Below, in pieces: positions 16,423 through 57,519 of a DNA stretch of 64,000 bases (position 1 is its first letter; each line of letters opens with the position of its first letter). Below the pieces are notes generated by a model. It was not told the DNA's origin. It did not search any database and saw only the letters and a list, made by a program, of their open reading frames with translations. Origin of the DNA: a virus (lineage: Duplodnaviria > Heunggongvirae > Uroviricota > Caudoviricetes); IMG/VR virus record IMGVR_UViG_3300033463_000040, positions 53,319 through 117,318 of that record, one strand, 5' to 3'. Position numbers and translations under genes: made by a program.

Positions 16423-16423
16423 C

Positions 16424-19000
16424 TTAATCTTCCCTTATTAAAATATTTTTTATATAAAGTTGTATCGACGCTGGATCTTGTACATTAGAAGCATTACATT
16501 GACCAATTTGTAGCCATAATGGATCACCCTCTACCCAACCTTGTAATAATAAAGCTTCTTTAGTTATACAAAATGAATGTGACATGCCTACATACTTTCC
16601 TTCACCCGGAACATCAGGAGACCATATTTCCCCATTACTAACAGTACCAGCAAATTGAGAATCTAAAATTGCAGTCGAATGATAGAATAAATTTGACCAC
16701 TGTAATTGAACAACTTCATTGTATGTATAATTTCTATTAGGTTCTTTTACTAAACCCATATAAACTAAAGCATCATCTAATTCTGGATAATGTTCAAATC
16801 TACTATCAATGTCTATTTGTAATTTTGTACCATGTTTAAATAAATTATCAGAAATACAATTAGACAAATTTACTGATCTAAAACTCGAATTTATACTTCC
16901 ATCAGTACAACAGAATTTAGCTAACATTACAGGCGTGCTAGCCCCTTCAATTCTTTCTGCAAGTGACCACCATTCGCCTGCTTCGCTAGGTGAAAATGTT
17001 GTAACTACTATAAAATCATTAGCGGTCCAATCTGAATGAATTGTATATTCAGGAAAATTAAGTAAAAGAGGTTGAGGAGTTTTAACACTATATGCGTATG
17101 GATAAGACTCTAAATACTCATAGTTATACGTATCTCTTGGACTCAAATTATAATATATATATAAATCAGAATCATTTGTTGTATGACCAACATAAAATGT
17201 ACGATAATTATTAGTAGCAGGATGACCATCATATGCTATTATTCTATCAGTACCTAAGTTAGGCCCAACCATAAATCCACCTTGACCATGTACAATATCT
17301 TCATTGCCTACTTCAATACTTATACATTTTAAATCAAAAGGTCTTGTTGCCGCACGTAAATCTACTTCTATATTATTTTCCCAAGGAGTACCTTTTTCAT
17401 GAGGTAATTTTATAGTAATAAAAGCTTCTTCTAATCTATACATACTATAATTTGTTTTATCAGTTTTATGTATATATAATTCTGTTTGCTCAGTTAACTT
17501 ATCCTTAAATATTTCAATTGTACTTACTCCACAACCTAAATTATCATCATATACGATATCAACATTACTTGATTCTTCATAAAAATCAGTTTCTCTATTA
17601 TATATAATAGTCTTACAAAATGTATTTGTAGTAGTATAACTTCTTTTAACAAAATCTGCTAAAATTGTAACCTTTACTTTTTCTAATTCAGGTAAATCAA
17701 ATAAAAGTGAAGTATTTGTTCCACTTACCCTAGCTAATAAATTTTCAATAAACCAATCTCCATATTTATTTATAAGTAGTGGATATAAATCTTTAGAAAA
17801 ATGTATTTTTACATCTGTACAATCTTCAACTAAACCTTCAACAGCAGGAGCATCTATATCACCTAATTTAGGAAAATATATATCTGTTAAACTTGTACAT
17901 CCTCTAAATGCTAAATATAATGCTTGATTATCCTTTAATAACATCAAACTATCAAAACTTATAGAAGTTAAAGATGTACAATATTGAAATATTTCCCAAC
18001 CACCTGCCGGTCCAATTTCTTTAAGGTTAGCTAAACTAACATGCTGTAAATTAGAGCATTGTTTAAACGCACAACAAGCTCCTCTTTCATCTATTTTTAT
18101 TACGCTATCTAAATTAATAGAGGTTAAACCTGTACAATTATAAAATAAGCCATTTGTTGCATTAATACCCTCATGACTAGGTCCTAAAATCAAATCTGAA
18201 GTACCAAGAACAACTTCGGTTAAATTTGCGCAGTTTTTAAACATATCATTAGAATTTTCTATTTGCTTTAAAGCTGGCATATATATTTTTTGAATTCCAG
18301 AAGCATTTCCTCCACCAAAGAGACCCGTAGTACCTTCAATTCTTTTTAAGCTTTCAAATCTAGCTTCTATTAAATCTTTTGTGTTACTAAACATATAATA
18401 TGCTGCATTGCCTGTTCCGTCTGTTGTTATTTCTTTTAATTTAGGAAAATCCACATAATATAAATCCTTACATCCATAAAAAGTATACCAACAAGTATAT
18501 TTACCTTTTATTTTTTCTAAGGAATTAAAGTTTATAGTTATTGGTTTTCCATAAGTAGTCGTACGTAACTGATAAAAAGTATAATTTAAAGTACCATTCG
18601 CATTACCAGTAGCCCCTTCTACATTTATTTCTTTTAAATTTGAAAAATCAATTTCAGTTACATTTGGATATTGACCTGTATAAAATGCATCATATAAAAC
18701 ATTTTTATTAGTAAGACTAGTCAAAGAAGAAAAATCTATCTTTGTAAGAGCATCTCGCTGATTCGCTGTCCAATTTTTTGCCGCATCTTTAAATACACCT
18801 TCACCTAAATTGGTAACTCCTTCCATATCACCAGGTTTGGGCCAAATAGATAAAAGTTCTTCTGTTGAAGTAGTTCTTTTACACAACTTACCTTCTACTA
18901 CTTCATAGTTTGAAGAGATTTCACTAAAAGGCAAAGGAACTTTTTGCTCTAAAATTTTAGCTGGGATTGGATTAGACTCACCGATTATAAGTTTAGCCAT
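16424..19000 (-). CDS. large BspA-type LRR protein (tail fibre / RBP)
   Basis: N-terminal LRR half with an internal SLLFDLPELEKV junction, then a distinct C-terminal domain. Confidence 0.55.
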   Translation of the reverse strand: MAKLIIGESNPIPAKILEQKVPLPFSEISSNYEVVEGKLCKRTTSTEELLSIWPKPGDMEGVTNLGEGVFKDAAKNWTANQRDALTKIDFSSLTSLTNKNVLYDAFYTGQYPNVTEIDFSNLKEINVEGATGNANGTLNYTFYQLRTTTYGKPITINFNSLEKIKGKYTCWYTFYGCKDLYYVDFPKLKEITTDGTGNAAYYMFSNTKDLIEARFESLKRIEGTTGLFGGGNASGIQKIYMPALKQIENSNDMFKNCANLTEVVLGTSDLILGPSHEGINATNGLFYNCTGLTSINLDSVIKIDERGACCAFKQCSNLQHVSLANLKEIGPAGGWEIFQYCTSLTSISFDSLMLLKDNQALYLAFRGCTSLTDIYFPKLGDIDAPAVEGLVEDCTDVKIHFSKDLYPLLINKYGDWFIENLLARVSGTNTSLLFDLPELEKVKVTILADFVKRSYTTTNTFCKTIIYNRETDFYEESSNVDIVYDDNLGCGVSTIEIFKDKLTEQTELYIHKTDKTNYSMYRLEEAFITIKLPHEKGTPWENNIEVDLRAATRPFDLKCISIEVGNEDIVHGQGGFMVGPNLGTDRIIAYDGHPATNNYRTFYVGHTTNDSDLYIYYNLSPRDTYNYEYLESYPYAYSVKTPQPLLLNFPEYTIHSDWTANDFIVVTTFSPSEAGEWWSLAERIEGASTPVMLAKFCCTDGSINSSFRSVNLSNCISDNLFKHGTKLQIDIDSRFEHYPELDDALVYMGLVKEPNRNYTYNEVVQLQWSNLFYHSTAILDSQFAGTVSNGEIWSPDVPGEGKYVGMSHSFCITKEALLLQGWVEGDPLWLQIGQCNASNVQDPASIQLYIKNILIRED

Positions 19001-21853: not shown

Positions 21854-21930
<77 letters not shown>

Positions 21931-22061
21931 ATAAACTACCTACTTGCTGTACTTACTACGATGGTAACTGGGAAATCTAGTATGGCAGCAAGTAGATATT
22001 ATATATTATATACATTTATTTTTATTTGTAAATACTTTTTTTAACTAAATTTCCAAAATAA

Positions 22062-22135
22062 TGGCAGGTCATGATGGAATCAAACCACCGACTAAGATTT
22101 TGGAGATCTTTGTTTTATCACTAAACTAATGACCT
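22062..22135 (-). tRNA. tRNA-Trp (CCA)
   Basis: Cloverleaf with anticodon loop CTCCAAA; acceptor AGGTCAT/ATGACCT; ends GCCA. Confidence 0.75.
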
Positions 22136-22140
22136 AGATT

Positions 22141-22214
22141 TGGAGGCCAGGACCGGAATCAAACCGATGTACAAGGATTTGCAGTCCTCTGCATAATCAT
22201 TCTGCCACCTGGCC
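22141..22214 (-). tRNA. tRNA-Cys (GCA)
   Basis: Anticodon loop CTGCAAA; acceptor GGCCAGG/CCTGGCC; 3-bp D-stem. Confidence 0.65.
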
Positions 22215-22219
22215 AAGAT

Positions 22220-22295
22220 TGGTGGCTGAGAGCGGGATCGAACCACTGACACAGGGATTTTCAGTCCCTTGCTCTACCAACTGAGCTACCCAGCC
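22220..22295 (-). tRNA. tRNA-Phe (GAA)
   Basis: Anticodon loop CTGAAAA; D-arm GCTCAGTTGGTAGAGC; T-loop TTCGATC. Confidence 0.8.
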
Positions 22296-22301
22296 AAAAA
22301 C

Positions 22302-22379
22302 TGGTCGGAATGCCCGGATTTGAACCGGGAGTCTCCTGTACCCAAAACAGGCGGAATAACCAGATTATCCTACATTCCG
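22302..22379 (-). tRNA. tRNA-Pro (UGG)
   Basis: Anticodon loop TTTGGGT; T-arm CCCGGTTCAAATCCGGG. Confidence 0.8.
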
Positions 22380-22469
22380 ATAAACTGTGGTAATCGATAA
22401 GATTTTACTTACATCTCTTCTACCCCATTGGGAAGTGTATTGATTATACTACAACTACCAAACTCAATT

Positions 22470-22499
22470 AAAAAACCTCCAGCTTTTTATTTCTGGAGG
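22470..22499 (-). terminator. rho-independent terminator (cctccag/ctggagg plus T6)
   Basis: Read directly, downstream of the ACP gene. Confidence 0.55.
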
Positions 22500-22622
22500 T
22501 ATCTAATCTTCTATAAAAGTATGATTAACACTTACCTCCAAAGGTACTAGGAAAGCATGGCCAAAAACATACATTTATTTTTTTCATATTATATAGAACT
22601 ATTTCTTTTATCGGTTAAACTC

Positions 22623-22856
22623 TCATTTTAAATATTTATTAGCAATATCTACAATATCTTGAATCGTTTTTACATCTACTAAATCATCATCTTTTATACG
22701 AATATCAAATTTTTCTTCTAATTTAGCAACCAATTCAATAGTATCTAATGAATCTAAACCTAAATCTTCATGAATAGACATCTCTGGAGTTATTTGAAAT
22801 GCAGTATATCCCATTTTTTCTAACTCTTTTATAATTTCAGTACATATATCTTTCAT
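22623..22856 (-). CDS. acyl carrier protein
   Basis: 77 aa, acidic, LGLDSLDTIELV phosphopantetheine-attachment motif (DSL). Confidence 0.65.
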   Translation of the reverse strand: MKDICTEIIKELEKMGYTAFQITPEMSIHEDLGLDSLDTIELVAKLEEKFDIRIKDDDLVDVKTIQDIVDIANKYLK

Positions 22857-23125
22857 ATCATATCCTTCCTATAAAACTATAAGGAGCAACCCATCTAAGT
22901 GTGTTCATGCTCCAACACCTTGCCTACCTAACTGTCTGGATTTGAACCAACTCAATCAGGTTTTGCATACACTCACCATAAGATTATCAGCGTGAAAACA
23001 CTGTGAGGTCAATCTTATGTATTTTGTGAGACCCTATATTGCCGATCCAAGCAGCAGCCTCCTATCTTCAGGCTGTCCCCGTCATTTTAGTCTTTGACCT
23101 ATAAGACCAAAACTTTTAATATTTA
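22857..23125. ncRNA. ORF-free structured segment (candidate ncRNA/intron remnant)
   Basis: 270 nt without an ORF. 9-bp stem cataagatt...aatcttatg, a T-arm-like ggatttgaacc, GC content above the flanks. Confidence 0.25.
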
Positions 23126-23398
23126 TTATCCACGAGTTTTAACATATTTACCCGGAACAACAAATGTTTTAGTAAAATCAACTAAATGATTTGTTTTTTC
23201 ATCAACCGCTTCAATTACAGTATATTGTGTATTTTTACCAGTAATATCTGCACCTACATTAACTTTTGCAGATAATTCATCATTAGTAAGATAATTAATT
23301 AACACAGCTTTACGAACATTTTCTTTACAAAATCCTAATAAATATAAATTCCAATGATCGTTTGTTGCAATTGGTGTTTGTTTACGGTTAAATGACAT
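23126..23398 (-). CDS. hypothetical protein
   Basis: ORF. Confidence 0.4.
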   Translation of the reverse strand: MSFNRKQTPIATNDHWNLYLLGFCKENVRKAVLINYLTNDELSAKVNVGADITGKNTQYTVIEAVDEKTNHLVDFTKTFVVPGKYVKTRG

Positions 23399-23486
23399 GA
23401 TTTTACCTCTTATTTTAAACTCATTGGGTGGGATTGATAATGTTACTAAAACATCATAGCAATTGTCCCACCCTTTTATATTTGAA

Positions 23487-23912
23487 CTATTTTATACGAC
23501 AATATTCAAAATATTTGCCTTCTACTCTACGCCATTTATAAATAGCGTTTTTATCTCTCAATAAGGCATCGTAAAAAATCTTTCCTAATTGACTTTTAGT
23601 AGATTTATCAATATCTACATCTGGTCTTTCTTTTAACCTAGCTTTTTGCCAATCAATACCCCATCTTTTAATTAAAAAATCTTCATTGGTAAATTCATGC
23701 TTATTAGATATATATGGAAACACATCTAAAGCACCAAACCATACCTCTTCTTTTGTAACTTTACCAACACCTCTAGCAAAGCTTTTAGCACAGCAAGCAC
23801 AATGATCTTCAATTAAAGACTTCTGAATATCAGTATATTCAGGAAGAGATGCAAAATGATTGATTAAGCGTTCTGGAGTATCAATCAAACCTCCATTTGT
23901 ATTAATAAACAT
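23487..23912 (-). CDS. hypothetical protein
   Basis: ORF. Confidence 0.4.
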   Translation of the reverse strand: MFINTNGGLIDTPERLINHFASLPEYTDIQKSLIEDHCACCAKSFARGVGKVTKEEVWFGALDVFPYISNKHEFTNEDFLIKRWGIDWQKARLKERPDVDIDKSTKSQLGKIFYDALLRDKNAIYKWRRVEGKYFEYCRIK

Positions 23913-24302
23913 ATTTTTTCCTTATGTTTTTCTTAGACTTATAGATATTAGGCATAATAAATAATTATCATTCACTAATATCCGGTTAAAATTGTTGTAG
24001 AGTCAATCAAATATAAACATCCAAGGATTGCATAAACATGCTTAATATATTATATAGACTCTACCCCAACACTATTTTGATAACTGTAACCCTACTCTAT
24101 CGTTTCAAGTATGTTACTTCATGATCGGTCTGTGCTCAGCAGTCATGACTAACCTGGAGTTAACACTATGTGCTCAACCTATTTTTTATTATCAAAATCT
24201 CTTACTTAGTAGGTCCCTTTACTGACTACGGCGTCCATTCAAATATATTGGATATACGATTCAAGGCTTTTATCTCTATACTACGATTACCTACTAATCT
24301 CT

Positions 24303-24377
24303 GGTGCCTGCTGACGGACTTGAACCGCCGACTTACTGATTACAAATCAGTCGTTCTACCAACTGAACTAAGCAGGC
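24303..24377 (-). tRNA. tRNA-Thr (UGU)
   Basis: Anticodon arm ACTGA-TTTGTAA-TCAGT; T-loop TTCAAGT. Confidence 0.75.
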
Positions 24378-24385
24378 ATAAACTA

Positions 24386-24462
24386 TGGTAGGAAGAGTGA
24401 GATTCGAACTCACGACCTTCGCTGTATCAGAGCGACATTCTAACCATCTGAACTACCTTCCT
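24386..24462 (-). tRNA. tRNA-Ile (GAU)
   Basis: Anticodon arm TCGCT-CTGATAC-AGCGA; T-arm GTGAGTTCGAATCTCAC. Confidence 0.7.
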
Positions 24463-24463
24463 A

Positions 24464-24539
24464 TGGTGGAGCTGATCAGACTCGAACTGACGACTCTCTG
24501 CTTGCAAAGCAGATGCTCTACCAACTGAGCTACAACCCC
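24464..24539 (-). tRNA. tRNA-Ala (UGC)
   Basis: Anticodon arm TCTGC-TTTGCAA-GCAGA; D-arm GCTCAGTTGGTAGAGC. Confidence 0.75.
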
Positions 24540-24605
24540 ATATAAATTTTTTGGTGGCCCTGACCGGAATCGAACCGGTACGACATTTAACTGTCAACAG
24601 ATTTT

Positions 24606-25309
24606 CTTACTACTATAGCTTTCACTACCAATTTCTTGTTTGTAGTCTGGACTTTGTCTTCACCATATATTTCTACTTAGGTGGCTGCCGTTAAGTCTCT
24701 ACACGTTCCTATTTCTAGGCTTCGCTCGGCGTTAGGATTATAAAACCTTTCACCGAATTTGACAGCATTCAATCGAGAAGTTTCCTACCTTGTTGCTCAT
24801 TAGTCTTACCTCTTCTAAACCTATAAGATTTAGTTAAGGAATGGCAATTTGGACACAATATAATTAAATTAGATAATAAATGATTTTCAGGATTTCCATC
24901 GATATGATGTAATTCGCATGGAGTATATTTGCTATTTTTTAATTTTTCACACCACCCACATTTCTCACACTTATCTTCTTTATATCCTTCATCTATTAAT
25001 CTTGTTTTTAATTTATATGTTTGATACTGAGGATACTTTCCTGCTAAAATTTCTTCTATAGATATTTTAGCAGATCTTTTTTTCTCAGTACCTTTTCCGC
25101 CTTGATTAGGTTTATAAATACCCAATCTTTTAGCATGCCTAATAAATGTTGTATATGCCATACCACATCTTTTAGCAGCTAAAGCCATTGTTTGAGACTT
25201 AATGATAATATCAATCATTTCTTGATCTGTAATTCTATTTTTCATAGGATTAACTCCTTATGATATAGAACTACTTTTTCAATAAATTATGATACACTCA
25301 TTTTCGTCT
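24606..25309 (-). mobile_element. group I intron in the tRNA-Leu anticodon loop, carrying an HNH homing endonuclease ORF
   Basis: Exon ends in U before the 5' splice site; the intron ends in G; P7-like CAGACTAC...GTAGT elements near the 3' end; HNH ORF inside. Confidence 0.6.
24769..25245 (-). CDS. HNH homing endonuclease (intron-encoded) with N-terminal HTH
   Basis: CELHHIDGNPENHLLSNLIILCPNCHS HNH motif; lies wholly within the intron. Confidence 0.65.
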   Translation of the reverse strand: MKNRITDQEMIDIIIKSQTMALAAKRCGMAYTTFIRHAKRLGIYKPNQGGKGTEKKRSAKISIEEILAGKYPQYQTYKLKTRLIDEGYKEDKCEKCGWCEKLKNSKYTPCELHHIDGNPENHLLSNLIILCPNCHSLTKSYRFRRGKTNEQQGRKLLD

Positions 25310-25360
25310 AAGTCTGCAGCGTCTACCAATTCCGCCACAGGGCCAAAATTAATAAAGTAA

Positions 25361-25450
25361 TGGCGGAGTGGGAGGGATTTGAACCCCCGGAAACATTACT
25401 GCTTCGGCTGATTAGTAATCAGCTGTATTAAACCGCTCTACCACCACTCC
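25361..25450 (-). tRNA. class II tRNA, Ser-like, with an atypical anticodon read as ACU
   Basis: Acceptor GGAGTGG/CCACTCC; long variable arm; anticodon arm GCTGA-TTACTAA-TCAGC gives ACT at 34-36. Confidence 0.55.
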
Positions 25451-25459
25451 TTTAAAAAA

Positions 25460-25549
25460 TGGCGGACAGAGAGGGATTCGAACCCCCGATACCATTGCTG
25501 GTATGCCGGTTTTCAAGACCAGTGTATTCAGCCACTCTACCATCTGTCC
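25460..25549 (-). tRNA. tRNA-Ser (UGA)
   Basis: Anticodon arm CTGGT-CTTGAAA-ACCGG; variable-arm hairpin ATACCAGCAATGGTAT; T-loop TTCGAAT. Confidence 0.75.
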
Positions 25550-25551
25550 AT

Positions 25552-25625
25552 TGGTGCACCAACCCGGTTATGCTCCGAGGTCTTAACCTTGGCAAGGTTA
25601 CATTCTACTATTAAACTACTGGTGC
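25552..25625 (-). tRNA. tRNA-Gly (GCC) with a non-canonical T-loop (AGCATAA)
   Basis: Acceptor GCACCAG/TTGGTGC; anticodon arm TAACC-TTGCCAA-GGTTA. Confidence 0.55.
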
Positions 25626-26109
25626 TTTTTATTCAAATATTTGAAAATTTCATCTTTAAAATTTTCAAACCAACCTAACTTTCTGTTACAATTACTACAT
25701 AATAATCCACGAAATTTAGAAGTTTTATGATCATGATCACGACATAATTTCGATATATCTTTTTTATTATGTTATGTGAAGCAATTTCAGTTTTACCACA
25801 AATTTCACATACCAAATGAGTTTTTTGGTATTCTTCTAATTCCCCATATGTAATATCTAAAATTTGCCCATTTTTTGCTTTTACAAATCTTTTTAATTTT
25901 TCTTCATGTAAATGATTACCTAATTTTCTATTTAAATTCAAAATTTGTTTTCTGTATTCAGGTTCTTGATATCTGGCTTTCATTTTATTTGAAATTTTCT
26001 TTTTTGTTTCTTGTGAAATATTACGACTATTTACACATTTTCTTGAACAAAATTTTCGATTTGTATCATTTTCAAATTCTATTCCACATTTTGGACAAAT
26101 TGCTTTCAT
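25616..26109 (-). CDS. Zn-ribbon + HNH endonuclease; HNH motif reachable only by a -1 shift at A-AAA-AAG (zero-frame product ends at 25675)
   Basis: Zero frame reads ...CEICGKTEIASHNIIKK then a non-conserved tail. The -1 frame from the A-AAA-AAG heptamer reads DISKLCRDHDHKTSKFRGLLCSNCNRKLGW, a canonical HNH motif. The 3' end overlaps tRNA-Gly. Confidence 0.5.
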
Positions 26110-26132
26110 TAATTTCCTTTTTTTAAATTTTT

Positions 26133-26209
26133 TGGTGCTTGTTAAGAGACTCGAACTCCTGACCCTCTGCGTGTAAAGCAGATGCTCTAGCCAACTGAGC
26201 TAAACAAGC
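26133..26209 (-). tRNA. tRNA-Val (UAC)
   Basis: Anticodon arm TCTGC-TTTACAC-GCAGA; T-loop TTCGAGT. Confidence 0.75.
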
Positions 26210-26402
26210 ATAGACCAAGAAAGCTAATAACTTTTTCATATTAACTTTCAGGTAATACTTCTAGCCAATGCTAAAAGAAAAACTTTCCTCTAATAAGTCT
26301 TACCAAAATTATTTCGTGCTTATTAGTAGGCTGTCTTTGATACGTATTCCTACCTTTATAGCCTCATACGTAACTAATAGTAGACACTTCTGTAAAACTT
26401 AA

Positions 26403-26476
26403 TGGTTGGAGCACCTGGATTCGGACCAAGATAACGGGAACCAAAATCCCGGGTTCTACCATTAAACTATGCTCCA
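26403..26476 (-). tRNA. tRNA-Gln (UUG)
   Basis: Anticodon arm CGGGA-TTTTGGT-TCCCG; T-loop TCCGAAT. Confidence 0.7.
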
Positions 26477-26482
26477 ATAAAT

Positions 26483-26557
26483 TGGCAGCCCCACTCGGAT
26501 TTGAACCGGGATTCTCGCCTTGAAAGGGCGGTGTCCTAACCATTAGACGATGGGGCC
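26483..26557 (-). tRNA. tRNA-Glu (UUC)
   Basis: GGCCCCATCGTCTAATGGTTAGGAC...CCGCC-CTTTCAA-GGCGA, very close to the E. coli tRNA-Glu pattern. Confidence 0.7.
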
Positions 26558-26564
26558 AGAAACA

Positions 26565-26639
26565 TGGCTGGCGTGGTCCGATTCGAACGGACAACCATTC
26601 GGTTAACAGCCGAAAGCTCTGCCGTTGAGCTACACGCCA
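26565..26639 (-). tRNA. tRNA-Asn (GUU)
   Basis: Anticodon arm TTCGG-CTGTTAA-CCGAA; T-arm GTCCGTTCGAATCGGAC. Confidence 0.75.
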
Positions 26640-27831
26640 ATATAAAGGTGTTTTGATTCTCTACGATGGCTCAATAACACCAAAAGCCTCGGCAAATCCT
26701 CGACCATTGGTCAAGGCCCAGAAATATGTTCAGTCGAGCATCACTAGCTGAACTCCGTGATGTTCGGATTGAGGTGTCCAATCAGTAGTTGAAACTTTAC
26801 CCCAAAAACCAAAAATGCATTTCTACATTCTGGCAATCCATACTAGCTAATGCTAATAGGAATTTAAGCGGAGAATGATAGTAAGACCCGGAATTTAGAT
26901 CACTGACTTGTAAGAGTACAAGCTAACCGGCCTATCAAACCCGAAATTAATATACATAAAAGTATATCAACAGTAAACATTTATACTTCCAATTCCACCT
27001 TACTAGAGCTCTTTCAGGTTTCCTATTCTTTCCCTTGGACTTGTTACAGCAAGCTGTATTGTCGAACACCAATACATTCGAGACTATTTCACTCGAAATA
27101 AGTATAAACATTAAAAATGCAGAATTTAGTTGGCCTAACCTAACGAAGTCACACCTGCATTAAACTCCGACTACTATCGACTAGTGACGATCGTTCTGAC
27201 CAGGAACGTTAGTCAAGGGATTTAGCCTACTACTGCAGTCTCAGCTAAATTGAGGGTGGGATTATTGGTTAGGCACTTCCCCTAACACTTCAGCCCAGTG
27301 TGCTGTGTGCTATACTTCACACTACTTACCCAAACTTTATGGCGACTCGTATGGGTACCGCCCCCATCTGATTTCCTGAGTGACAGTCAGGTGAACACAC
27401 TATGCATTCCCACGAGCCAAATATTTTTCTATACTTTTTGAGCTAAGCCCGCAAATAAATTTGGTAGATTCTGTTGCCAAGCTCTACCCAGCTCCGATTG
27501 ATAACTTTATTTAAATCAAGCAGCTATTGCACTTAATTTATAGTTATCGTTCGCTGGTTCATTTATCATGCCAGTCAATTAAATAATCTTTTGTAATTAT
27601 TTAGTAAACTGTATCGGTGATATTGCAATGTCCCTTATGCTTCTTTTGGTCTAGTACCAAATGTTCTATTCGTAATAAACTAAATATCACCAAACTTTAT
27701 GGTGGAGATATCGGTATTGAAACCGAGTCCAGTAAAAATATACTGTCGAATTTAACTCATCCCCTTGTATCTTTACCTAGAGCTGATAACATTACTAAGA
27801 TGTCATAGCAGTTGTTCTAGGATTTCATTTG
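26640..27831. ncRNA. 1.2-kb ORF-free, GC-enriched, hairpin-dense segment between tRNA-Asn and tRNA-Tyr: candidate large structured RNA
   Basis: No ORF above the noise. GC visibly above the ~28% background. Many GC-containing local stems (catcac..gtgatg, gttagg..cctaac, agtgtg..cacact, cctga..tcagg). CCAAACTTTATGG motif twice (27331, 27679). A tRNA-like 3' end at 27690-27725. Confidence 0.3.
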
Positions 27832-28751: not shown

Positions 28752-29150
28752 TTAATCTGATAATACTTGTGCCATAAATATACCATGATTATGCATTAAA
28801 CCAACTACTGCGCTGTGATCATCTAAGCCTAAATTAAACTCATAGCCTTTTTCTTCTAACTTTTTAATCATATCGAGTTTAAATTCAGCAGTAGTACCGG
28901 GGTAATCATGTGGTTTACAAAATACTTTCTTTTTAATATTTGGAAATAGTTCATTAAGTAATTTTTCTACTTTTTCTTGACCCATAGCCCAACGACCTGT
29001 AATGAATACGATAGTAAACTTTTGACCAAGCTGTTCGATTACAGATATCATCTTTTCATTAGGTTCACCAAAATGATCATAATTAGGAATAGCAAATTTA
29101 TGCGTAACTACACCATCTATATCACAAAAAATTGCTGGTATTTTATCCAT
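28752..29150 (-). CDS. HAD-superfamily phosphatase
   Basis: FCDIDGVV (DxDG motif I), FITGR (motif II), GLDDHS (motif IV). Confidence 0.55.
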   Translation of the reverse strand: MDKIPAIFCDIDGVVTHKFAIPNYDHFGEPNEKMISVIEQLGQKFTIVFITGRWAMGQEKVEKLLNELFPNIKKKVFCKPHDYPGTTAEFKLDMIKKLEEKGYEFNLGLDDHSAVVGLMHNHGIFMAQVLSD

Positions 29151-36792: not shown

Positions 36793-38994
36793 TTAATCCT
36801 TATTATAATAACTGTTTTTAATATCAATAATGGATAATGTATCTAAATCAATACCACCATTTTTAATACCTGTCATAAAACTAAACAAATCATTCATCAA
36901 ATTTGTTTGTTCAGACTTTACATTTTTAGCGGCAAAATATTTATCATTATCACCTTTATTAATATATTCTTTCATTCTACGCATGTCTTTCCAGAATTTA
37001 TAGAAAGGTGTTTTATATTTAATCATAAAATTATTCTGATCTACAAATACAAAACCTTCTATTTCTTCATGAAAATCTTTATCAAATGCTTCAATAAAAG
37101 ATTTTAATTCAGCAAAGGTATTAAATACTTTACACATTTCTTTTGGTTTACATCCTATTTGTTTAGCTAATTCCCATACATCATCATAAGATTTAAATGT
37201 ATCTGTAAAATCATTCTGTACTATATCTAATAATACAACTTTTTCATTGACATATTCAATAATATGCGGATCATTATGTGGATCTACACATTCAAATATA
37301 GCGGAACAATTATTAGCTTTTAAATATTCTTTTAATTTATCAATATTTGTATGTGTTTTTAATATACGCTCAAAGTTTTCTTTATATTCGCCTTGATTTG
37401 TAGATTTAGATGCAATAAATAATTGATCATTATATACAGATACAATACCTAAAAAGCCATTTTCTTTCAAATAAGCAGTTACTGGAAATACTAATGTCTT
37501 TTCTAAATTTCTCCATTGTGTAGATGGATGCTGTTCTGCTTCAAAAAATTTAGGATAAGATCTAGCAACTACTTGATTTGTCTTAGTATCAACAAATAAG
37601 CCTCTCGCTGTAGTAGTTAATTTATTCCATTTTTGGCTATAAAAAGCTTCTCTACTAAAGTTATAAGAAACTATACCATCACCCAAATCTTTTTTATGTA
37701 TTAAACTACTACTATCCAATTGTTGAATAATTGGATTATCATGTCTACTAGAAGGAATTTGTATATCTTTGTTATAAATTGTATTTGGTATTTCTATTGG
37801 TAATATATTCATTTTGTCTGTATAAGATAATTCAACTATTCTTAAATTACCACCAAATTCAACTTTACCTTCTAAGTTAATACTATAGCCGTCTGCACTT
37901 ATAATTGGATTATTAGTTACATTACGATGACCATGTACATTATAGCATTTGTAGTTTAATACTTGCATAGTCATTTTTTCATTAATACTACCAAAAGCTT
38001 TTTCTACTTCATCTAAATCATCATAATCACCTACTCCTTTAATACATTGTATTGCAGAAGTACGATAATCTAAAGGAAAGCTTAATCCACCATGAGTAAT
38101 AGAAAATCTATGATAAATACCCTGACAGTAAAAACTAACATTTACTGCTACTTTTAATCTTCTAGTAAACTTACTTAATTGATCTTTTAATTCACCAAAC
38201 TGTACTAAAGAATCTTTGAAATCTGGTGTCATTTTAGCAGCTTCACCATCTCTTACATAATTCTTAGCCCATATTTCATGATTACCTTGTAAAAATACAA
38301 AGTTTTCTTTTTCACAGTGGTCTAAACAAAACTGTAATACTTCTTTAGCTTGAATACCACGATCAAAATAATCACCAATAAAGATGTATAATTTTTGATC
38401 AGATTCTGGAGATGCTTCAAAGTATTTTCTTATTGGATCATAACAATTATGTATATCACCAAATATTACTACTTCTTTCCATTTATTACCATCTATTTTA
38501 TATACAAAATTATCTAAATTAGGAAATTCATTATAATCATAAATTTCATATTTATTTTGTAATGGTACTTTTATTTGATTATACATACGATCTAATACTT
38601 CATTTGGTACTTGTTTATAACTTTCCCGCATTAAATTTCTTTCTTTACAAGTATCTAAATCAACAGAAGAAAAATCTACAATAATCATACGATAATTATA
38701 TTCTTTACACAATTTTTTATAATCTTTTAAATAAGATTCTTTGGTATGTGTAGCATCTAATATAGTAAAATCACCATTCTTCATACGATCTTCTAATCTT
38801 TCTTTAAAGAAAGCCCAAACATGTTTATCATGTTTATTAGAAACAATATATTTACCTTTTATAGTTTGTTCTGGAGAAGAGTATAATAAACGAATAGCAT
38901 CGGTACTTAAAACGTATGCTTCTAAATCTCTTTCTTTAATCCAAGTAGATTTACCAGAACCTGGAATACCTCTTAAAACTAACAAGATCTTCAT
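36793..38994 (-). CDS. trifunctional RNA repair enzyme, Pnkp-like (kinase, metallophosphatase, ligase-like)
   Basis: N-terminal P-loop GIPGSGKST; central calcineurin-like motifs GDIHNCYD, GDYFDRG, GNHE; C-terminal third with ligase-like KENG. Confidence 0.55.
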   Translation of the reverse strand: MKILLVLRGIPGSGKSTWIKERDLEAYVLSTDAIRLLYSSPEQTIKGKYIVSNKHDKHVWAFFKERLEDRMKNGDFTILDATHTKESYLKDYKKLCKEYNYRMIIVDFSSVDLDTCKERNLMRESYKQVPNEVLDRMYNQIKVPLQNKYEIYDYNEFPNLDNFVYKIDGNKWKEVVIFGDIHNCYDPIRKYFEASPESDQKLYIFIGDYFDRGIQAKEVLQFCLDHCEKENFVFLQGNHEIWAKNYVRDGEAAKMTPDFKDSLVQFGELKDQLSKFTRRLKVAVNVSFYCQGIYHRFSITHGGLSFPLDYRTSAIQCIKGVGDYDDLDEVEKAFGSINEKMTMQVLNYKCYNVHGHRNVTNNPIISADGYSINLEGKVEFGGNLRIVELSYTDKMNILPIEIPNTIYNKDIQIPSSRHDNPIIQQLDSSSLIHKKDLGDGIVSYNFSREAFYSQKWNKLTTTARGLFVDTKTNQVVARSYPKFFEAEQHPSTQWRNLEKTLVFPVTAYLKENGFLGIVSVYNDQLFIASKSTNQGEYKENFERILKTHTNIDKLKEYLKANNCSAIFECVDPHNDPHIIEYVNEKVVLLDIVQNDFTDTFKSYDDVWELAKQIGCKPKEMCKVFNTFAELKSFIEAFDKDFHEEIEGFVFVDQNNFMIKYKTPFYKFWKDMRRMKEYINKGDNDKYFAAKNVKSEQTNLMNDLFSFMTGIKNGGIDLDTLSIIDIKNSYYNKD

Positions 38995-40523: not shown

Positions 40524-41777
40524 TTAAATATTACCTAAAATACTAATATCACAATCTGCAACTGATAATCGTTGAGCTAAACTTCTTATAATATCATTTG
40601 CACATTTGTTAATTAGTTCACTTTCTTTTGCAGCTGAAATATTACAAAGATAAGTTTTTGGATTTAAATACCAAAAGAAATTTGTACTTGCAATATCAGT
40701 TGCTTTTAACCCAGCAGTACGAAGAGTATTTACACTACGCTCAATATCAATATCTGATATAAGCTTTGGTAAATTCTTAACTACTTCATCTACTGCAGCT
40801 AAATATTGTTTTAAATGTTTCTTTTCTGTACTTGATTTAATTAATATAATTTGTGGTAATTTATTATTAAACTGATTTGGATATAAAACAACCCCATCTG
40901 CATAAATACTATAACAAATACCATATTTTTCACGAATCTCTTTAATTAAAGGCGCAGATAATCCACCTGATAAAGCAACCTCTAATATAGTTAACATTCT
41001 TGGTGTAGTCATAATATCTTTTAAATAATATGCATGTAATACTTGTACTTGTGCAGTATTTTTCTTTTGTTTATATGGAGATTTTTTCTTTATATCTAAA
41101 TTAAAAGCAGTAGCCGCTTTTTCACTCCATATCTTACGCATATCTTTTTGTGTAGAAAGATAACAATGTTTTATACCAAAATATTTTTCAACAATTTTAC
41201 AAATCTTACGAAATGATAAATGTGAACATACAGAAATTACCATATTTCTTGGTATATATGTATTATAAATAAAATCGTTTACTTGTTTTAATGTAATTTT
41301 TTTAACACTTTTAATAGAGCCAGCCACATCTTCCATACTTAAAAATTCATGAAAATAATTTGTTTCATTTGTTGCTTCAAAATTATCTTCATACATAGCA
41401 ATTTCTTGGCATACAATAGACTTTTCTTTTTCAAATTCTTCTTTACTAATATTTTTATTTAACAACATATCTGCATATATTTCAGCACATTTTTCAAGTT
41501 TTTCTGGTAAACATTCAAAATGAAAACGAACATTATCATAATTAGTCCATGCATTAACAATAGCACCTTGTTGTTCTAATTCTTCAGATATTTGTTTAGT
41601 CGTTCTTTTATGACTTGCTTTGAACATTAAATGCTCAACCAAATGATTAATTCCTTTTTCATTTGATTCTTCTAAAGCACTACCTGTTAAAACATTTACA
41701 TGAAAAGCATCTTTATTATTAACTTTATTTTTTTCATATAATAAAACTAATCCATTATCAAATGTTTTAAATAACAT
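40524..41777 (-). CDS. M16-family (pitrilysin-like) zinc peptidase
   Basis: Inverted zinc motif HLVEH (HxxEH) near the N-terminus; length typical of an M16 domain. Confidence 0.55.
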   Translation of the reverse strand: MLFKTFDNGLVLLYEKNKVNNKDAFHVNVLTGSALEESNEKGINHLVEHLMFKASHKRTTKQISEELEQQGAIVNAWTNYDNVRFHFECLPEKLEKCAEIYADMLLNKNISKEEFEKEKSIVCQEIAMYEDNFEATNETNYFHEFLSMEDVAGSIKSVKKITLKQVNDFIYNTYIPRNMVISVCSHLSFRKICKIVEKYFGIKHCYLSTQKDMRKIWSEKAATAFNLDIKKKSPYKQKKNTAQVQVLHAYYLKDIMTTPRMLTILEVALSGGLSAPLIKEIREKYGICYSIYADGVVLYPNQFNNKLPQIILIKSSTEKKHLKQYLAAVDEVVKNLPKLISDIDIERSVNTLRTAGLKATDIASTNFFWYLNPKTYLCNISAAKESELINKCANDIIRSLAQRLSVADCDISILGNI

Positions 41778-41802: not shown

Positions 41803-42657
41803 TTATTTATTTAAATTCATTAAAATTGGCATAGAATCACCAGTCATAATTTGTGGCAATTTACCATCCCATTTTTGAACAAATTCATAATTAACTAATT
41901 TTGGATTATTTGCTAAAGCATTTGCACGAATACGCATAGATTCAGCTTCACTTTTTGCACTAATAACTTGCTGTTTAGCTTTTTGTTCAACTTGTTTAGT
42001 ACGATTTTCTTCTTCTAAAGCTTCTTGTTCTGCAACTACTTTCTTTTCAATAGATTTTTCAAATTGATCAGAATAATCAATATTAATCATTTGAAAATTT
42101 GTAATAGTAACAGGATATTTATGTTCAATCATACGAGATTGTAGTGATTTTAAAATATTATCTGCTACTTTATCACGATTAGCAACCATTTGATCTGCAT
42201 TCCATGTACCCACTTCAGCTTTAACGGCTTGTTCTAAGTTAGGATATAAAATACGTTCTTGCCATTGATTACCGTATGTTTTATATGTTTCAATAATATC
42301 ATTACTAATCAAATTATATGAATATGACACAGTAATATTTGCTGTTTGAATATCTTTTGTATAAGTTTGTGTTTTATAATCAGCACGAATCGTTTTAATA
42401 TCAAAAGTTTTTACATCTTGAATAATTGGACACTTGATATGTAAACCTGCTTCATATATATGATTCGAAGCTTTACCAAAAGTAGTTAAGATGGCTCTTT
42501 CACCTTCAGCTACAGTAAACCAAGATCCAAAAATAAGAATTAAACACAAAATCCACAATGCACCGGTAAATAAAGCAGATAATATAAAATCTGTAACATT
42601 TTCATTATCCATATTATAACCATTATTTGGTACAAAATAAAACTTTTTCCATTTCAT
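41803..42657 (-). CDS. SPFH/band-7 (prohibitin/HflC-like) membrane protein
   Basis: N-terminal TM helix, then VAEGERAILTTFGK and a coiled-coil C-terminus. Confidence 0.55.
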   Translation of the reverse strand: MKWKKFYFVPNNGYNMDNENVTDFILSALFTGALWILCLILIFGSWFTVAEGERAILTTFGKASNHIYEAGLHIKCPIIQDVKTFDIKTIRADYKTQTYTKDIQTANITVSYSYNLISNDIIETYKTYGNQWQERILYPNLEQAVKAEVGTWNADQMVANRDKVADNILKSLQSRMIEHKYPVTITNFQMINIDYSDQFEKSIEKKVVAEQEALEEENRTKQVEQKAKQQVISAKSEAESMRIRANALANNPKLVNYEFVQKWDGKLPQIMTGDSMPILMNLNK

Positions 42658-55977: not shown

Positions 55978-57519
55978 ATGTCAATTTTAAAAACAATCGA
56001 AAAACAAGGTTTGACAGAAGCTAAACGCAATGTCAAAATGAACCGCGGTATCGCACACGCAGCTCAATTCTTAGCAGAATCTAACTTAGGTGTTCGTTGC
56101 CCAAATTTGGTTAAAGGTTTAGAATCTGATTCCAAAGAAGCTAAATATGCAGCAGCTACATTAGTCCAAATCATGGAAAATACAGCTGACTACGTTATGA
56201 AAACAGACGGCAAAGATATCTTACATGAAGATGCTATCAACGCTACAGCTAACACAATGTTAACACCAGGCGTCTCAACTTTGACTCCACAAGTATTGGA
56301 TATCGTTAATATATTTTATCCAATGATGGTTGCAAATTATATTGCAGACATTCAAGCTATGGATCGTCAATCTGGCCAAATCTTTACAATTAAGACACGT
56401 TACAGCCAGACAGCAGCAGACGTAGCAGAAGGTGATATTGTATTCGAAAAAGCAACTGACGGTACATATTCTACTGAAGGTGTTATTTCTTATACAGCAG
56501 CTACAACAGCAGCAGGTGCAGCTACATTGAATCCAACAGCAGCATTAGAAGCAAACACAACAGTAAAAGTACGTGCAGGTTCATTTATCGTTACAGTTGA
56601 TGGTAAAGAAGTTGCTCGTGATTACGGTTTAGACACATCTTTGGATGGTGTTGGTGGTACATATGTAGTTATCGGTAAGGGCGTATCTGGTACAGTTGAT
56701 GCACAAACAGGTGTTGCAACTTTGAAATTGGATACAGCTGTTATTGCTGATGGTACAGTATTGAATGCTACAGCTTCTTATGATACAGAACACGATGAAG
56801 ATTTGATTCGTAAGATTCAATTCGATATTCCTAACCAACCAATCTTGGCTAAGGAACACCCATTGATGAGTTCATATTCTGTTGCTGCAGGTTTAGTCAT
56901 GAACGCTCACTTAGCAATTGATACAGATGAATTGATCACAAATCAATTAGCTGGTACAATTCGTTGGGAACGTGACTTGGCATTAGTTAAAGCAGTATCT
57001 GATGCTGCAGTTGCTAATCCATCTTTGACTTTTGACTGCTCAGCTAACGGTACTAACTTGACATTGGCACAACGTTATAGTTCATATACAACAACTATTT
57101 CTTCTGCTCGTGGTATTATCCAAGAAACAGCAGGTCGTGGAACTGTTGACTTTATCATCTGTTCTGCTACTCAAGGTTTGCCAATTATCGAACAAATCGA
57201 AGGCTTTAAAGCTGCTCCAGAAGCTAAGAAACCAATTGGTCCATATTTAGCAGGTACATTGCGTGATGGTACAATCAACGTAATTGCAGTTCCTTATACA
57301 AAAACATTGGCAGCTGATCAAGTTGTCTTTGGTTTCAAGGGCTTCCAATTAGGTGATTCTGCAATCATCTTAGCTGAATGGGTTGCTTTGTATTTGACAC
57401 CAACATTCCAAGCTCCAAACTTACGTAACCACAAAGGTTGCTTGAGTTTCTACGACTTATTTGTAAATAAGCCAGAATACTTGGTTAAAGGTGCTATTTC
57501 TAACTTCAACGTTGCTTAA
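55978..57519 (+). CDS. putative major capsid protein (513 aa)
   Basis: Plus-strand gene; codon usage strongly skewed to GGT/GCT/ACA/GTT-type codons, unlike its neighbours; Ala/Thr/Gly/Val-rich; followed by a strong terminator. Confidence 0.45.
   Translation: MSILKTIEKQGLTEAKRNVKMNRGIAHAAQFLAESNLGVRCPNLVKGLESDSKEAKYAAATLVQIMENTADYVMKTDGKDILHEDAINATANTMLTPGVSTLTPQVLDIVNIFYPMMVANYIADIQAMDRQSGQIFTIKTRYSQTAADVAEGDIVFEKATDGTYSTEGVISYTAATTAAGAATLNPTAALEANTTVKVRAGSFIVTVDGKEVARDYGLDTSLDGVGGTYVVIGKGVSGTVDAQTGVATLKLDTAVIADGTVLNATASYDTEHDEDLIRKIQFDIPNQPILAKEHPLMSSYSVAAGLVMNAHLAIDTDELITNQLAGTIRWERDLALVKAVSDAAVANPSLTFDCSANGTNLTLAQRYSSYTTTISSARGIIQETAGRGTVDFIICSATQGLPIIEQIEGFKAAPEAKKPIGPYLAGTLRDGTINVIAVPYTKTLAADQVVFGFKGFQLGDSAIILAEWVALYLTPTFQAPNLRNHKGCLSFYDLFVNKPEYLVKGAISNFNVA

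What the first reader, a model, noticed from the sequence alone, without database searches (positions are those of the whole stretch)
36793..38994. Phage-encoded trifunctional Pnkp-like RNA repair enzyme (kinase, calcineurin-type phosphatase, ligase-like) next to a tRNA island
The 733-aa protein combines an N-terminal P-loop kinase (GIPGSGKST), a central metallophosphoesterase (GDIHNCYD / GDYFDRG / GNHE) and a C-terminal third with a KENG motif reminiscent of nucleotidyl-transferase motif I. This kinase-phosphatase-ligase order is the bacterial Pnkp arrangement rather than the T4 Pnk one. A separate HAD phosphatase (28752-29150) is also present. With 17 tRNAs this suggests end-healing and sealing repair of tRNAs cut by host anticodon nucleases, here carried on a single polypeptide.
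Basis: partly seen in the sequence, partly recalled or inferred. Interest (0 to 1): 0.65.

Follow-up and report, generated by a model that had tools for sequence, protein, structure and literature searches.

The report
Phage heal-and-seal RNA repair enzyme
A gut jumbo phage encodes one 733-residue protein joining an RNA 5'-kinase, a metal-dependent 3'-end phosphatase and an RNA ligase; it belongs to a large, already catalogued but biochemically untested family, and its ligase module unexpectedly resembles the fungal tRNA-splicing ligase rather than the bacterial Pnkp or T4 type.

Summary
ORF 36793-38994 (minus strand, 733 aa) carries an intact P-loop polynucleotide kinase, a binuclear metallophosphoesterase and an ATP-dependent RNA ligase. 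All catalytic residues are invariant across more than 100 homologs.

The "trifunctional RNA repair enzyme" reading holds. The "bacterial Pnkp" label is only half right. The kinase and phosphatase are C. thermocellum Pnkp-like. The ligase is not the Hen1-dependent Pnkp type. It is a Trl1-type ("Rnl6") ligase with the fungal C-domain and an invariant counterpart of the fungal 2'-phosphate-binding triad (H577/K669/R672).

The protein is not new. PHROG 8238 matches full length. There are 112 full-length hits in cultured phages (Twort, SPbeta-like, Fusobacterium) and 161 bacterial/MAG loci.

The tRNA island is 10 kb away, holds 15 tRNAs rather than 17, and the linkage is not conserved.

One bacterial clade has the fusion in an operon with Tpt1 (RNA 2'-phosphotransferase) and Thg1. 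This hints at a fungal-type 2'-phosphate repair route. However, that is a single clade, and cultured phages with the fusion lack Tpt1.

Verdict: a new member of a known kind with a testable mechanistic twist.

The parts
36793..38994 (-). Whole ORF, 733 aa: kinase, metallophosphoesterase and RNA ligase fusion
   Evidence: ORF listed. Three Pfam domains. Full-length PHROG 8238 match, E=5.9e-175. AlphaFold2 model with mean pLDDT 91.5.
38500..38994 (-). N-terminal P-loop polynucleotide 5'-kinase domain (aa 1-165). Key residues: P-loop G9-T17, K15/S16, general base D32, R35, D80, lid R123.
37780..38487 (-). Central binuclear metallophosphoesterase domain (aa 170-405). Key residues: D180, H182, D208, D211, R212, N238, H239, H301, H354, H356.
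36796..37704 (-). C-terminal ATP-dependent RNA ligase (aa 431-733), Trl1/Rnl6-type. Key residues: R464, K482, F483, motif I K510-E-N512-G513, Ia K530, III E568, H577, IV E646-G647, V K659/K661, K669, R672. Includes a helical C-domain at about aa 663-733.
28752..29150 (-). Stand-alone HAD phosphatase of the T4-Pnkp phosphatase type (132 aa). It is a possible accessory 2'/3'-end phosphatase. Membership of the repair system is inferred only.
   Evidence: PF25109 HAD_PNKP, 30.6 bits against a cutoff of 27.6. Also flagged in precomputed Pfam.
21854..26639 (-). tRNA island with 15 tRNA genes: Met, Trp, Cys, Phe, Pro, Thr, Ile, Ala, 2 Ser, Val, Gln, Glu, Asn, plus one at 25555-25625. These are candidate substrates or a parallel counter-measure. 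This is context, not a demonstrated part.
   Evidence: ARAGORN finds 14. Rfam finds 15 at gathering score and no further sub-threshold tRNAs.

Best explanation
The gene encodes an autonomous single-polypeptide RNA 'heal-and-seal' enzyme of a T4-like gut jumbo phage.

Proposed mechanism. [quoted passage not shown] The N-terminal P-loop kinase (K15/S16, D32, R35) phosphorylates the 5'-OH. The central Mn/Ni-type binuclear phosphoesterase (D180, H182, D208, N238, H239, H301, H354/H356) opens and removes the cyclic phosphate. The C-terminal ligase is adenylylated on K510, transfers AMP to the 5'-phosphate, and seals the ends.

The ligase has its own Trl1-like C-domain, so it should need no Hen1-type activator.

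Shown here: domain identities, folds and conservation of every catalytic residue. Inferred: the activities, RNA as substrate, and the anti-defence role.

One step is left open. Either the 3' end is fully dephosphorylated before sealing (T4-like; I rate this about 0.55-0.6 for phage members), or a 2'-phosphate is retained and read by the H577/K669/R672 pocket (fungal-like; about 0.3).
For: Three domains score above Pfam gathering thresholds. Every catalytic residue of all three modules is invariant in 43 diverse homologs, at least 95% conserved in 114, and conserved in 83 genome and phage loci.

Wild-type CthPnkp heals tRNA ends for sealing by T4 Rnl1 (PMC1920235). Inteins in homologs sit exactly at the P-loop and at GNHE, which marks these as functionally critical sites.

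In some bacteria the gene sits in operons with Tpt1 and/or Thg1, both of which act on tRNA. The phage context, with a 15-tRNA island and a HAD_PNKP phosphatase, fits a tRNA-centred counter-defence. The general logic follows PMC7824862.
Against: No biochemistry exists for any member in the literature I could search. The substrate is unknown. CthPnkp-type kinases also act on DNA, and T4 Rnl1 has a second role in tail-fibre attachment.

The tRNA linkage is not conserved in relatives. No anticodon nuclease or host is known for this phage. Inter-domain packing is uncertain (pTM 0.58).

The phosphatase active site looks like wild-type CthPnkp (H182 retained), which predicts 2'-OH ends. The ligase keeps the fungal 2'-phosphate pocket. 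These two signals pull in opposite directions, so the end chemistry cannot be settled in silico.
Confidence: 0.8

Rival explanations
1. Fungal/plant-type pathway in a phage. The metallophosphoesterase acts only as a cyclic phosphodiesterase and leaves a 3'-OH,2'-PO4 end. The Trl1-like ligase needs that 2'-PO4, which it reads with H577/K669/R672. Sealing leaves a 2'-PO4 junction, which is later removed by a Tpt1/KptA enzyme (the host's, in the phage case) or by another phosphatase.
For: The family profile aligns to Trl1-LIG through the whole C-domain. All four sulfate/2'-PO4 ligands of C. thermophilum LIG (Asn150, His227, Arg334, Arg337) map to invariant N512, H577, K669 and R672. Mutating that triad slows fungal ligation 60- to 580-fold (PMC11404444), and R334/R337 set the 2'-P preference (PMC12440814). 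T4 Rnl1 lacks the His and the C-domain.

In 11 loci the fusion is operonic with Tpt1. The linkage was kept through a gene-order change: Tpt1-Thg1-fusion in one layout, and fusion-Tpt1 with a 4-bp overlap in the other. These operons contain no 2H enzyme. A metallophosphoesterase can be tuned to give 2'-PO4 (CthPnkp H189D; PMC1920235, PMC2190708). Lambda phosphatase yields a mix of 2'- and 3'-NMP (PMC2190708).
Against: The Tpt1-linked proteins form a single clade, only about 36-39% identical to the window protein. No Tpt1 lies in the window or in the 10 kb beyond either end.

The 98 Tpt1-carrying phage records belong to other genera than the cultured phages that carry the fusion. H182, the residue whose mutation reprogrammes CthPnkp, is retained.

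Arg334 is Lys here. Plant Trl1 needs a 2'-P without these arginines, so the pocket is not a clean predictor (PMC12440814). Some bacterial Tpt1s remove terminal 2'/3'-phosphates, so Tpt1 could be a healing partner rather than a post-ligation one (PMC6573784).
Confidence: 0.3
2. A bacterial Pnkp/Hen1-type repair system: the C-terminal ligase is the Pnkp (Rnl4) kind, is activated by Hen1, and repair includes 2'-O-methylation.
For: The domain order is the same. The kinase and phosphatase are closest to CthPnkp.
Against: TIGR04075 scores 65 bits against a cutoff of 750 and matches only aa 4-314. The ligase is PF09511 with a Trl1-like C-domain. No methyltransferase or Hen1 appears in the precomputed Pfam annotation of about 84 kb, nor among recurrent neighbours in about 82 loci.
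Confidence: 0.03
3. Not RNA repair. The protein could process DNA ends, act as a NinI/lambda-like protein phosphatase coupled to a small-molecule kinase, or serve in tail-fibre attachment like T4 gp63.
For: PHROG hits include NinI-like Ser/Thr phosphatase and the T4 'RNA ligase and tail fiber attachment catalyst'. PP1 and lambda phosphatase are strong sequence hits for the middle domain. CthPnkp kinase structures include DNA complexes (entry 4mde).
Against: Strict co-conservation of all three active sites in one polypeptide across phyla fits a coupled heal-and-seal function. The bacterial neighbours are tRNA enzymes (Tpt1, Thg1). The gene lies outside the tail-fibre block at 2-20 kb.
Confidence: 0.05

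Closest known systems
Uncharacterised phage/bacterial fusion family: PHROG 8238; e.g. Staphylococcus phage Twort ORF008 'RNA ligase', SPbeta-like phage proteins, Fusobacterium phage phiKSUM CDS0128
   Same: Same three-domain architecture, length and catalytic residues. The PHROG match is full length, E=5.9e-175. There are 112 phage records with at least 80% coverage, 1193 database homologs, and 161 loci in species-representative genomes.
   Different: Only 31-39% identical to cultured-phage and bacterial members. 74-85% identical relatives exist only on uncultured gut/rumen contigs of 230-250 kb.
Fungal tRNA ligase Trl1, LIG domain ('Rnl6' clade; PDB 6n0t, 6n67, 9qw7, 8rbj)
   Same: Best sequence and fold match for aa 431-733, including the all-helical C-domain. 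Shares the KENG motif I and counterparts of the Asn/His/Arg/Arg 2'-PO4 pocket (PMC6379707, PMC11404444).
   Different: The domain order is reversed: LIG is C-terminal here. The healing modules are unrelated to Trl1's: a CthPnkp-like kinase, and a metallophosphoesterase in place of a 2H cyclic phosphodiesterase. Arg334 is Lys. Only 18-26% identity. A 2'-PO4 requirement is untested.
Clostridium thermocellum Pnkp (with Hen1) and Capnocytophaga Pnkp1-Rnl-Hen1
   Same: Kinase then binuclear metallophosphoesterase, in the same order with the same active-site residues. These are the best structural matches for both healing domains.
   Different: The Pnkp ligase domain (Rnl4) is replaced by a Trl1-type ligase. 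There is no Hen1 partner. The TIGR04075 cutoff is missed by a wide margin.
Phage T4 Pnkp + Rnl1 tRNA restriction-repair pathway
   Different: T4 uses two proteins. Its phosphatase is of the HAD type. The Rnl1 C-domain, which gives tRNA specificity, is not alignable, and T4 Rnl1 lacks the H577 equivalent.

Membership tests
Phage/bacterial kinase-Metallophos-RNA_lig_T4_1 fusion family (PHROG 8238) | Full-length match to the family profile with all three domains | tested here: met
   phrog_8238, E=5.9e-175, protein 1-708 against profile 1-710 of 737. Almost all of the top 120 homologs share the same Pfam architecture.
Covalent nucleotidyltransferase / ATP-dependent RNA ligase (Pfam PF09511) | Score above gathering threshold, with motifs I (KxxG), Ia, III, IV and V present and conserved | tested here: met
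   130.9 bits against a cutoff of 28.3. K510/N512/G513, K530, E568, E646-G647 and K659/K661 are invariant.
Rnl1 family in the strict sense (T4 Rnl1) | T4 Rnl1-type C-terminal domain that confers tRNA specificity | tested here: not met
Trl1-LIG / Rnl6 clade | Distinctive all-helical C-domain appended to an Rnl1-like adenylyltransferase | tested here: met
Trl1-LIG / Rnl6 clade | His-Arg-Arg triad (CthLIG His227, Arg334, Arg337) forming the 2'-PO4 pocket | tested here: inconclusive
   The counterparts are H577, K669 and R672. They are invariant in 43 sequences, and in the 83-locus alignment His is present in 82 loci, Lys in 77 (Arg in 2) and Arg in 79. Lys replaces Arg334. I could not check the 3-D geometry of the pocket because no model coordinates were available.
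Trl1-LIG / Rnl6 clade | Biochemical requirement for a 3'-OH,2'-PO4 end | not testable with these tools
   Needs ligation assays with pRNA2'p and pRNA-OH substrates, as in PMC11404444.
Trifunctional eukaryal Trl1 | LIG-KIN-CPD order with a 2H cyclic phosphodiesterase and a Trl1-type (GTP-preferring) kinase | tested here: not met
Bacterial Pnkp (NCBIfam TIGR04075) | Whole-protein score at or above the curated cutoff | tested here: not met
   65 bits against a cutoff of 750. Only aa 4-314 match, to model positions 10-333 of 851.
Bacterial Pnkp | P-loop kinase with Asp general base and Arg, plus binuclear metallophosphoesterase motifs (DxH, GDxxDRG, GNH, H, GH) | tested here: met
Bacterial Pnkp | Hen1 methyltransferase partner that activates the ligase | tested here: not met
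   No Hen1 or methyltransferase family appears in the precomputed Pfam annotation of the window plus 10 kb each side, nor among recurrent neighbours. The rest of the roughly 231-kb genome was not seen.
T4-type Pnkp | Kinase fused to a HAD (DxDxT) 3'-phosphatase | tested here: not met
   The fused phosphatase is a metallophosphoesterase. A HAD_PNKP-type phosphatase exists only as a separate ORF at 28752-29150.

The most novel reading that the evidence does not exclude
This widespread phage/bacterial fusion family is the prokaryotic branch of the fungal/plant Trl1-type tRNA ligases. Like them, it recognises a 2'-phosphate at the 3' end through the invariant H577/K669/R672 pocket. On this reading, phages and bacteria run a 'fungal-type' tRNA repair route that leaves a 2'-phosphate junction. 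That would supply the long-missing physiological substrate for bacterial Tpt1/KptA, which is operonic with the fusion and Thg1 in one clade. It would also point to a prokaryotic or viral origin of the eukaryotic tRNA ligase module.
Probability: 0.3. Interest if true: 0.8.

Novelty: new member of a known kind. Interest (0 to 1): 0.5.

Why it matters
As a phage gene it is ordinary. It is one more counter-defence RNA repair enzyme, from a family present in Twort-like, SPbeta-like and many uncultured phages and prophages.

What deserves attention is the family's sealing module. It is a Trl1-type ligase outside eukaryotes that keeps the residues which enforce the 2'-phosphate requirement of fungal tRNA ligase. 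In one bacterial clade it is operonic with Tpt1. [quoted passage not shown] These proteins are candidates for exactly such a ligase in bacteria and phages, and the idea can be tested with existing assays.

A compact, autonomous kinase-phosphatase-ligase could also be useful as an RNA-end repair reagent.

Tried and rejected
1. Nucleotide search of the gene against 50,697 phage records found no match. Only protein-level homologs at 35% identity or less exist in cultured phages.

2. Bacterial Pnkp membership is rejected.

3. T4 Rnl1 as the closest ligase is rejected in favour of Trl1-LIG.

4. I looked for partner genes (Hen1, Tpt1, Thg1, 2H, RtcB, RlaP, CCA enzyme) in the window and 10 kb beyond each end. 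I used precomputed Pfam annotation and my own Tpt1 and Thg1 HMMs against six-frame translations. None was found.

5. The idea that Tpt1 linkage is family-wide is rejected. It is one clade, 11 of about 82 loci.

6. The idea that Tpt1-linked members have a 'reprogrammed' phosphatase (an H189D-like change) is rejected. They keep His. A different set of 7 loci has Gln there.

7. Co-occurrence of Tpt1 and the fusion in cultured phages: the genera essentially do not overlap. The phiCD211 kptA neighbourhood was uninformative.

8. Extra tRNAs to reach 17: none found, even at E<=1.

9. Literature on this fusion: no biochemical study turned up. The survey most likely to have catalogued the architecture (Burroughs & Aravind 2016, PMC5062991) is not held, so prior description of the architecture, and possibly of the Tpt1 linkage, cannot be excluded.

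10. A look-up of the Gp23-like ORF by exact sequence failed. It was identified through a neighbour look-up instead.
Full report
**Observation.**
The window contains an ATG-initiated ORF at 36793..38994 on the minus strand, encoding 733 aa.

Pfam assigns three domains, all well above gathering score:
- AAA_33 kinase at 4-142, E=8e-21.
- Metallophos at 175-313, E=3.4e-13.
- RNA_lig_T4_1 at 463-665, E=8.1e-38.

The separate HAD phosphatase at 28752-29150 is real: PF25109 HAD_PNKP, 30.6 bits against a cutoff of 27.6.

The tRNA count is 14 by ARAGORN and 15 by Rfam. No further candidates appear even at E<=1. The island (21854-26639) is about 10 kb from the gene.

**What the window is.**
All genes in the region run on the minus strand. 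The window has:
- a tail-fibre block with leucine-rich-repeat proteins at 2-20 kb;
- the tRNA island;
- auxiliary genes (UDG, NUDIX, peptide deformylase, YkuD, SNase, M16 peptidase, Band_7);
- a T4 Gp23-type major capsid gene at 55978-57519.

The exact protein occurs on metagenomic contigs of 136-231 kb. A 74%-identical relative lies on a 231,788-bp Hadza human-gut contig with T4-like baseplate, tail-tube and Gp23 genes. A 77%-identical relative lies on a 245-kb rumen contig binned as 'Bacilli'. This is therefore an uncultured gut jumbo myovirus. GC content is 25-37%.

**Are the three modules catalytically competent?**
I tested three alignments:
- 114 full-length homologs, 35-85% identical to the query;
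- a tool alignment of 43 sequences at 38-75% identity (A1);
- 83 loci from phage records and species-representative genomes.

The following residues are invariant or nearly so:
- Kinase: G9, G14, K15, S16, D32, R35, D80, N120, R123.
- Phosphatase: D180, H182, D208, D211, R212, N238, H239, H301, H354, H356.
- Ligase: R464, K482, F483, K510, N512, G513, K530, E568, E646, G647, K659, K661.

The kinase aligns to the C. thermocellum Pnkp kinase (4gp6) with the P-loop, the general-base Asp (Cth D38 <-> D32) and Arg (R41 <-> R35) in register. The D38N mutant entry 4mde confirms the position.

An AlphaFold2 model built on A1 is confident: mean pLDDT 91.5. pTM is 0.58, so the relative domain orientation is uncertain.

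|---|---|---|---|---|

Foldseek gives the same ranking.

**Which families?**
The healing half is CthPnkp-like, but the protein is not a bacterial Pnkp. TIGR04075 scores 65 bits against a cutoff of 750 and covers only aa 4-314.

The sealing half is not the Pnkp (Rnl4) ligase either. By single-sequence search it hits only Trl1-type tRNA ligases in the PDB (9qw7, 1.4e-18). T4 Rnl1 is not detected. The family profile hits Trl1-LIG structures at 6e-34 to 4e-24 and aligns through the C-terminal helical domain to profile position about 720. T4 Rnl1 aligns to the family ligase HMM only as far as motif V: 49.6 bits, HMM positions 33-247 of 300.

In Shuman's nomenclature, the distinctive C-domain makes Trl1-LIG the founder of an 'Rnl6' clade (PMC6379707).

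In CthLIG, a sulfate taken as the 2'-PO4 mimetic is held by Asn150, His227, Arg334 and Arg337. Alanine substitution of His227, Arg334 or Arg337 slows RNA adenylylation 420-, 120- and 60-fold (PMC11404444). R334 and R337 govern the 2'-P preference (PMC12440814).

In the profile alignment these positions are N512, H577, K669 and R672. All are invariant in A1. In the 83-locus alignment, His is present in 82 loci, Lys in 77 (Arg in 2) and Arg in 79; the remaining loci are gaps from truncated sequences. At the His position, T4 Rnl1 has a gap in the alignment.

So the ligase is a Trl1-type enzyme that retains the pocket, with one Arg-to-Lys change.

**How common is it?**
- PHROG 8238 ('RNA ligase') matches full length, E=5.9e-175.
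- tblastn finds 112 phage records with at least 80% coverage. All are below 60% identity (about 27-38% in the listed rows). They include Twort ORF008, Staphylococcus CoN phages, SPbeta-like Bacillus phages, Brochothrix A9, Fusobacterium and Lactobacillus phages. Annotations vary: 'RNA ligase', 'polynucleotide kinase', 'phosphatase' or hypothetical.
- The large protein database holds 1193 homologs at E<=1e-10, and nearly all of the top 120 have the three-domain architecture.
- A scan of one genome per species finds 161 loci across Bacillota, Fusobacteriota, Pseudomonadota, Campylobacterota, Bacteroidota and others. Isolates are included: Flintibacter muris, Flavonifractor sp. An82, Helicobacter sp. 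15-1451, Kurthia populi, Fusobacterium vincentii, Succinivibrio dextrinosolvens and Thalassospira xianhensis.

The gene is thus a new member of a catalogued family. I found no biochemical study of any member. The comparative survey most likely to list the architecture (Burroughs & Aravind 2016) is not in the held library.

**Gene neighbourhoods.**
I clustered ORFs within 4 kb of the gene in about 82 loci.

The most recurrent neighbour, in 11 loci, is an RNA 2'-phosphotransferase (Tpt1/KptA): PF01885, E=8.9e-43.
- In Phascolarctobacterium the operon is WCX-domain regulator, Tpt1 (4666-5214), Thg1-like (5218-5982; PF04446, 2.5e-31), then the fusion (5992-8211).
- In a Bacteroidaceae MAG the fusion (6001-8187) is followed by Tpt1 (8184-8744) with a 4-bp overlap, between IleRS and a DEAD-box helicase.

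Thg1 also occurs near the fusion in an unrelated lineage, L061.

Tpt1's canonical substrate is the internal 2'-PO4 left by Trl1-type ligases. [quoted passage not shown] Reviews note bacterial Tpt1-Thg1 operons without naming a ligase (PMC8120803). The Aravind group treats KptA as a clean-up enzyme in phage RNA repair (PMC9503650, PMC7824862).

**Limits of that lead.**
- The 11 Tpt1-linked fusion proteins are each other's nearest relatives (at least 60% identical) and only 36-39% identical to the window protein. The linkage is one clade that retained Tpt1 through a rearrangement, not a family-wide trait.
- Neither Tpt1 nor Thg1 is detectable in the window by HMM against six-frame translations.
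- Precomputed Pfam annotation shows no Tpt1, 2H, RtcB or Hen1 in the window or in the 10 kb beyond each end.
- The 98 phage records with Tpt1 are Erwinia, Dickeya, Klebsiella and Serratia jumbo phages, phiCD211-like phages and a few others. They are not the Staphylococcus, Brochothrix, Fusobacterium or Lactobacillus phages that carry the fusion.
- The phosphatase keeps His182. This is the counterpart of CthPnkp His189, whose mutation to Asp converts the product from 2'-OH to 2'-PO4 (PMC1920235, PMC2190708). Wild-type CthPnkp yields ends that T4 Rnl1 can seal.
- Some bacterial Tpt1s remove terminal 2'/3'-phosphates (PMC6573784), so Tpt1 might act before ligation.
- Plant Trl1 needs a 2'-P although it lacks the two arginines (PMC12440814).

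The end chemistry is therefore unresolved. I put about 0.3 on 2'-PO4-dependent sealing.

**Most likely mechanism.**
1. The kinase domain makes the 5'-PO4.
2. The binuclear metallophosphoesterase opens and removes the cyclic phosphate.
3. The ligase is adenylylated at K510 and seals the ends.

The ligase's own C-domain makes a Hen1-type activator unnecessary.

Shown here: domain identity, fold and strict co-conservation of all three active sites. Inferred: the activities, RNA (tRNA) as substrate, and the counter-defence role.

Supporting context:
- the phage's 15 tRNAs and a stand-alone HAD_PNKP phosphatase;
- tRNA-acting partners in bacterial operons;
- intein insertions precisely at the P-loop and the GNHE motif in homologs.

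Against over-reading the tRNA island: close and distant relatives lack nearby tRNAs.

**Verdict.**

The gene is a new member of a known, widespread but biochemically uncharacterised family. The point worth following up is that the family's ligase is Trl1-like and retains the 2'-phosphate pocket. Together with the Tpt1/Thg1 operons, this gives a concrete and cheaply testable hypothesis for a fungal-type tRNA repair route in bacteria and phages.

Noticed in passing
window 27460-27761 (-): Sub-threshold tmRNA-like matches lie just beyond the tRNA island: alpha_tmRNA RF01849 at 36.4 bits against a gathering score of 50 (E=8.6e-8), and tmRNA_permuted RF04321 at 22.9 bits. ARAGORN calls no tmRNA. 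This could be a divergent or two-piece phage tmRNA.
   Followed up: no
Homologs P0007, P0038 (~1057 aa) and P0019 (1254 aa): These carry intein-like insertions in the fusion protein. One of ~310 aa sits at the phosphatase GNHE motif (query aa ~238-245). P0019 also has one of ~190 aa at the kinase P-loop, and has Pfam Intein_splicing and HNH_3 hits.
   Followed up: partly
Homologs P0045/P0077 (481-493 aa) and P0046/P0048 (449-493 aa): Some close relatives are split. One ORF holds kinase plus phosphatase only, and another holds mainly the ligase. This suggests natural two-gene versions, or interrupted genes.
   Followed up: partly
window 41803-42657 (-) and 40524-41777 (-): A Band_7/SPFH protein (PF01145, E=1.2e-30) and an M16 peptidase lie 1.5-3 kb upstream of the fusion gene on the same strand. 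From my memory of the Burroughs & Aravind 2016 abstract, SPFH modules were proposed as scaffolds of RNA repair systems. I did not verify this.
   Followed up: no
Loci L055, L063, L085-L089 (H182Q); L030, L048, L055, L076, L078, L088 (H354F): A subset of bacterial homologs replaces metal-site histidines of the phosphatase domain: GDLQ instead of GDIH, and FGH instead of HGH. All other catalytic residues are kept. These may be natural variants with altered phosphoesterase specificity.
   Followed up: partly
L044 2155-8211; L014 6001-8744; L061 1944-8457: Bacterial operons combine the fusion with Tpt1/KptA and/or a Thg1-like 3'-5' polymerase, and with a WCX-domain (WYL-type) regulator. This looks like a chromosomal tRNA repair cassette.
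   Followed up: yes
window 24769-25245 (-) and 25675-26109 (-): Two small Cys-rich ORFs sit inside the tRNA island. The first has an HNH-like signature (…HHIDGNPENH…CPNCH…). These are probably homing endonucleases interrupting the tRNA array. Seen in the translations; Pfam was uninformative for the second.
   Followed up: no
window 2126-19000 (-): A long run of paralogous tail-fibre-like proteins carries leucine-rich repeats (PF13306 LRR_5) and shares N- and C-terminal modules. This suggests a diversified receptor-binding arsenal.
   Followed up: no
L092 13456-15345 (about 2.4-4.3 kb beyond window position 1): An NAD-dependent DNA ligase (DNA_ligase_aden, OB, BRCT) is encoded just outside the window. 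The window's first ORF (474-1499) is a second, weakly matching metallophosphoesterase.
   Followed up: no
window 23400-23700 region (L008 7220-7453): A 77-aa acyl-carrier-protein-like ORF (PP-binding) is called between tRNA clusters in the precomputed annotation.
   Followed up: no
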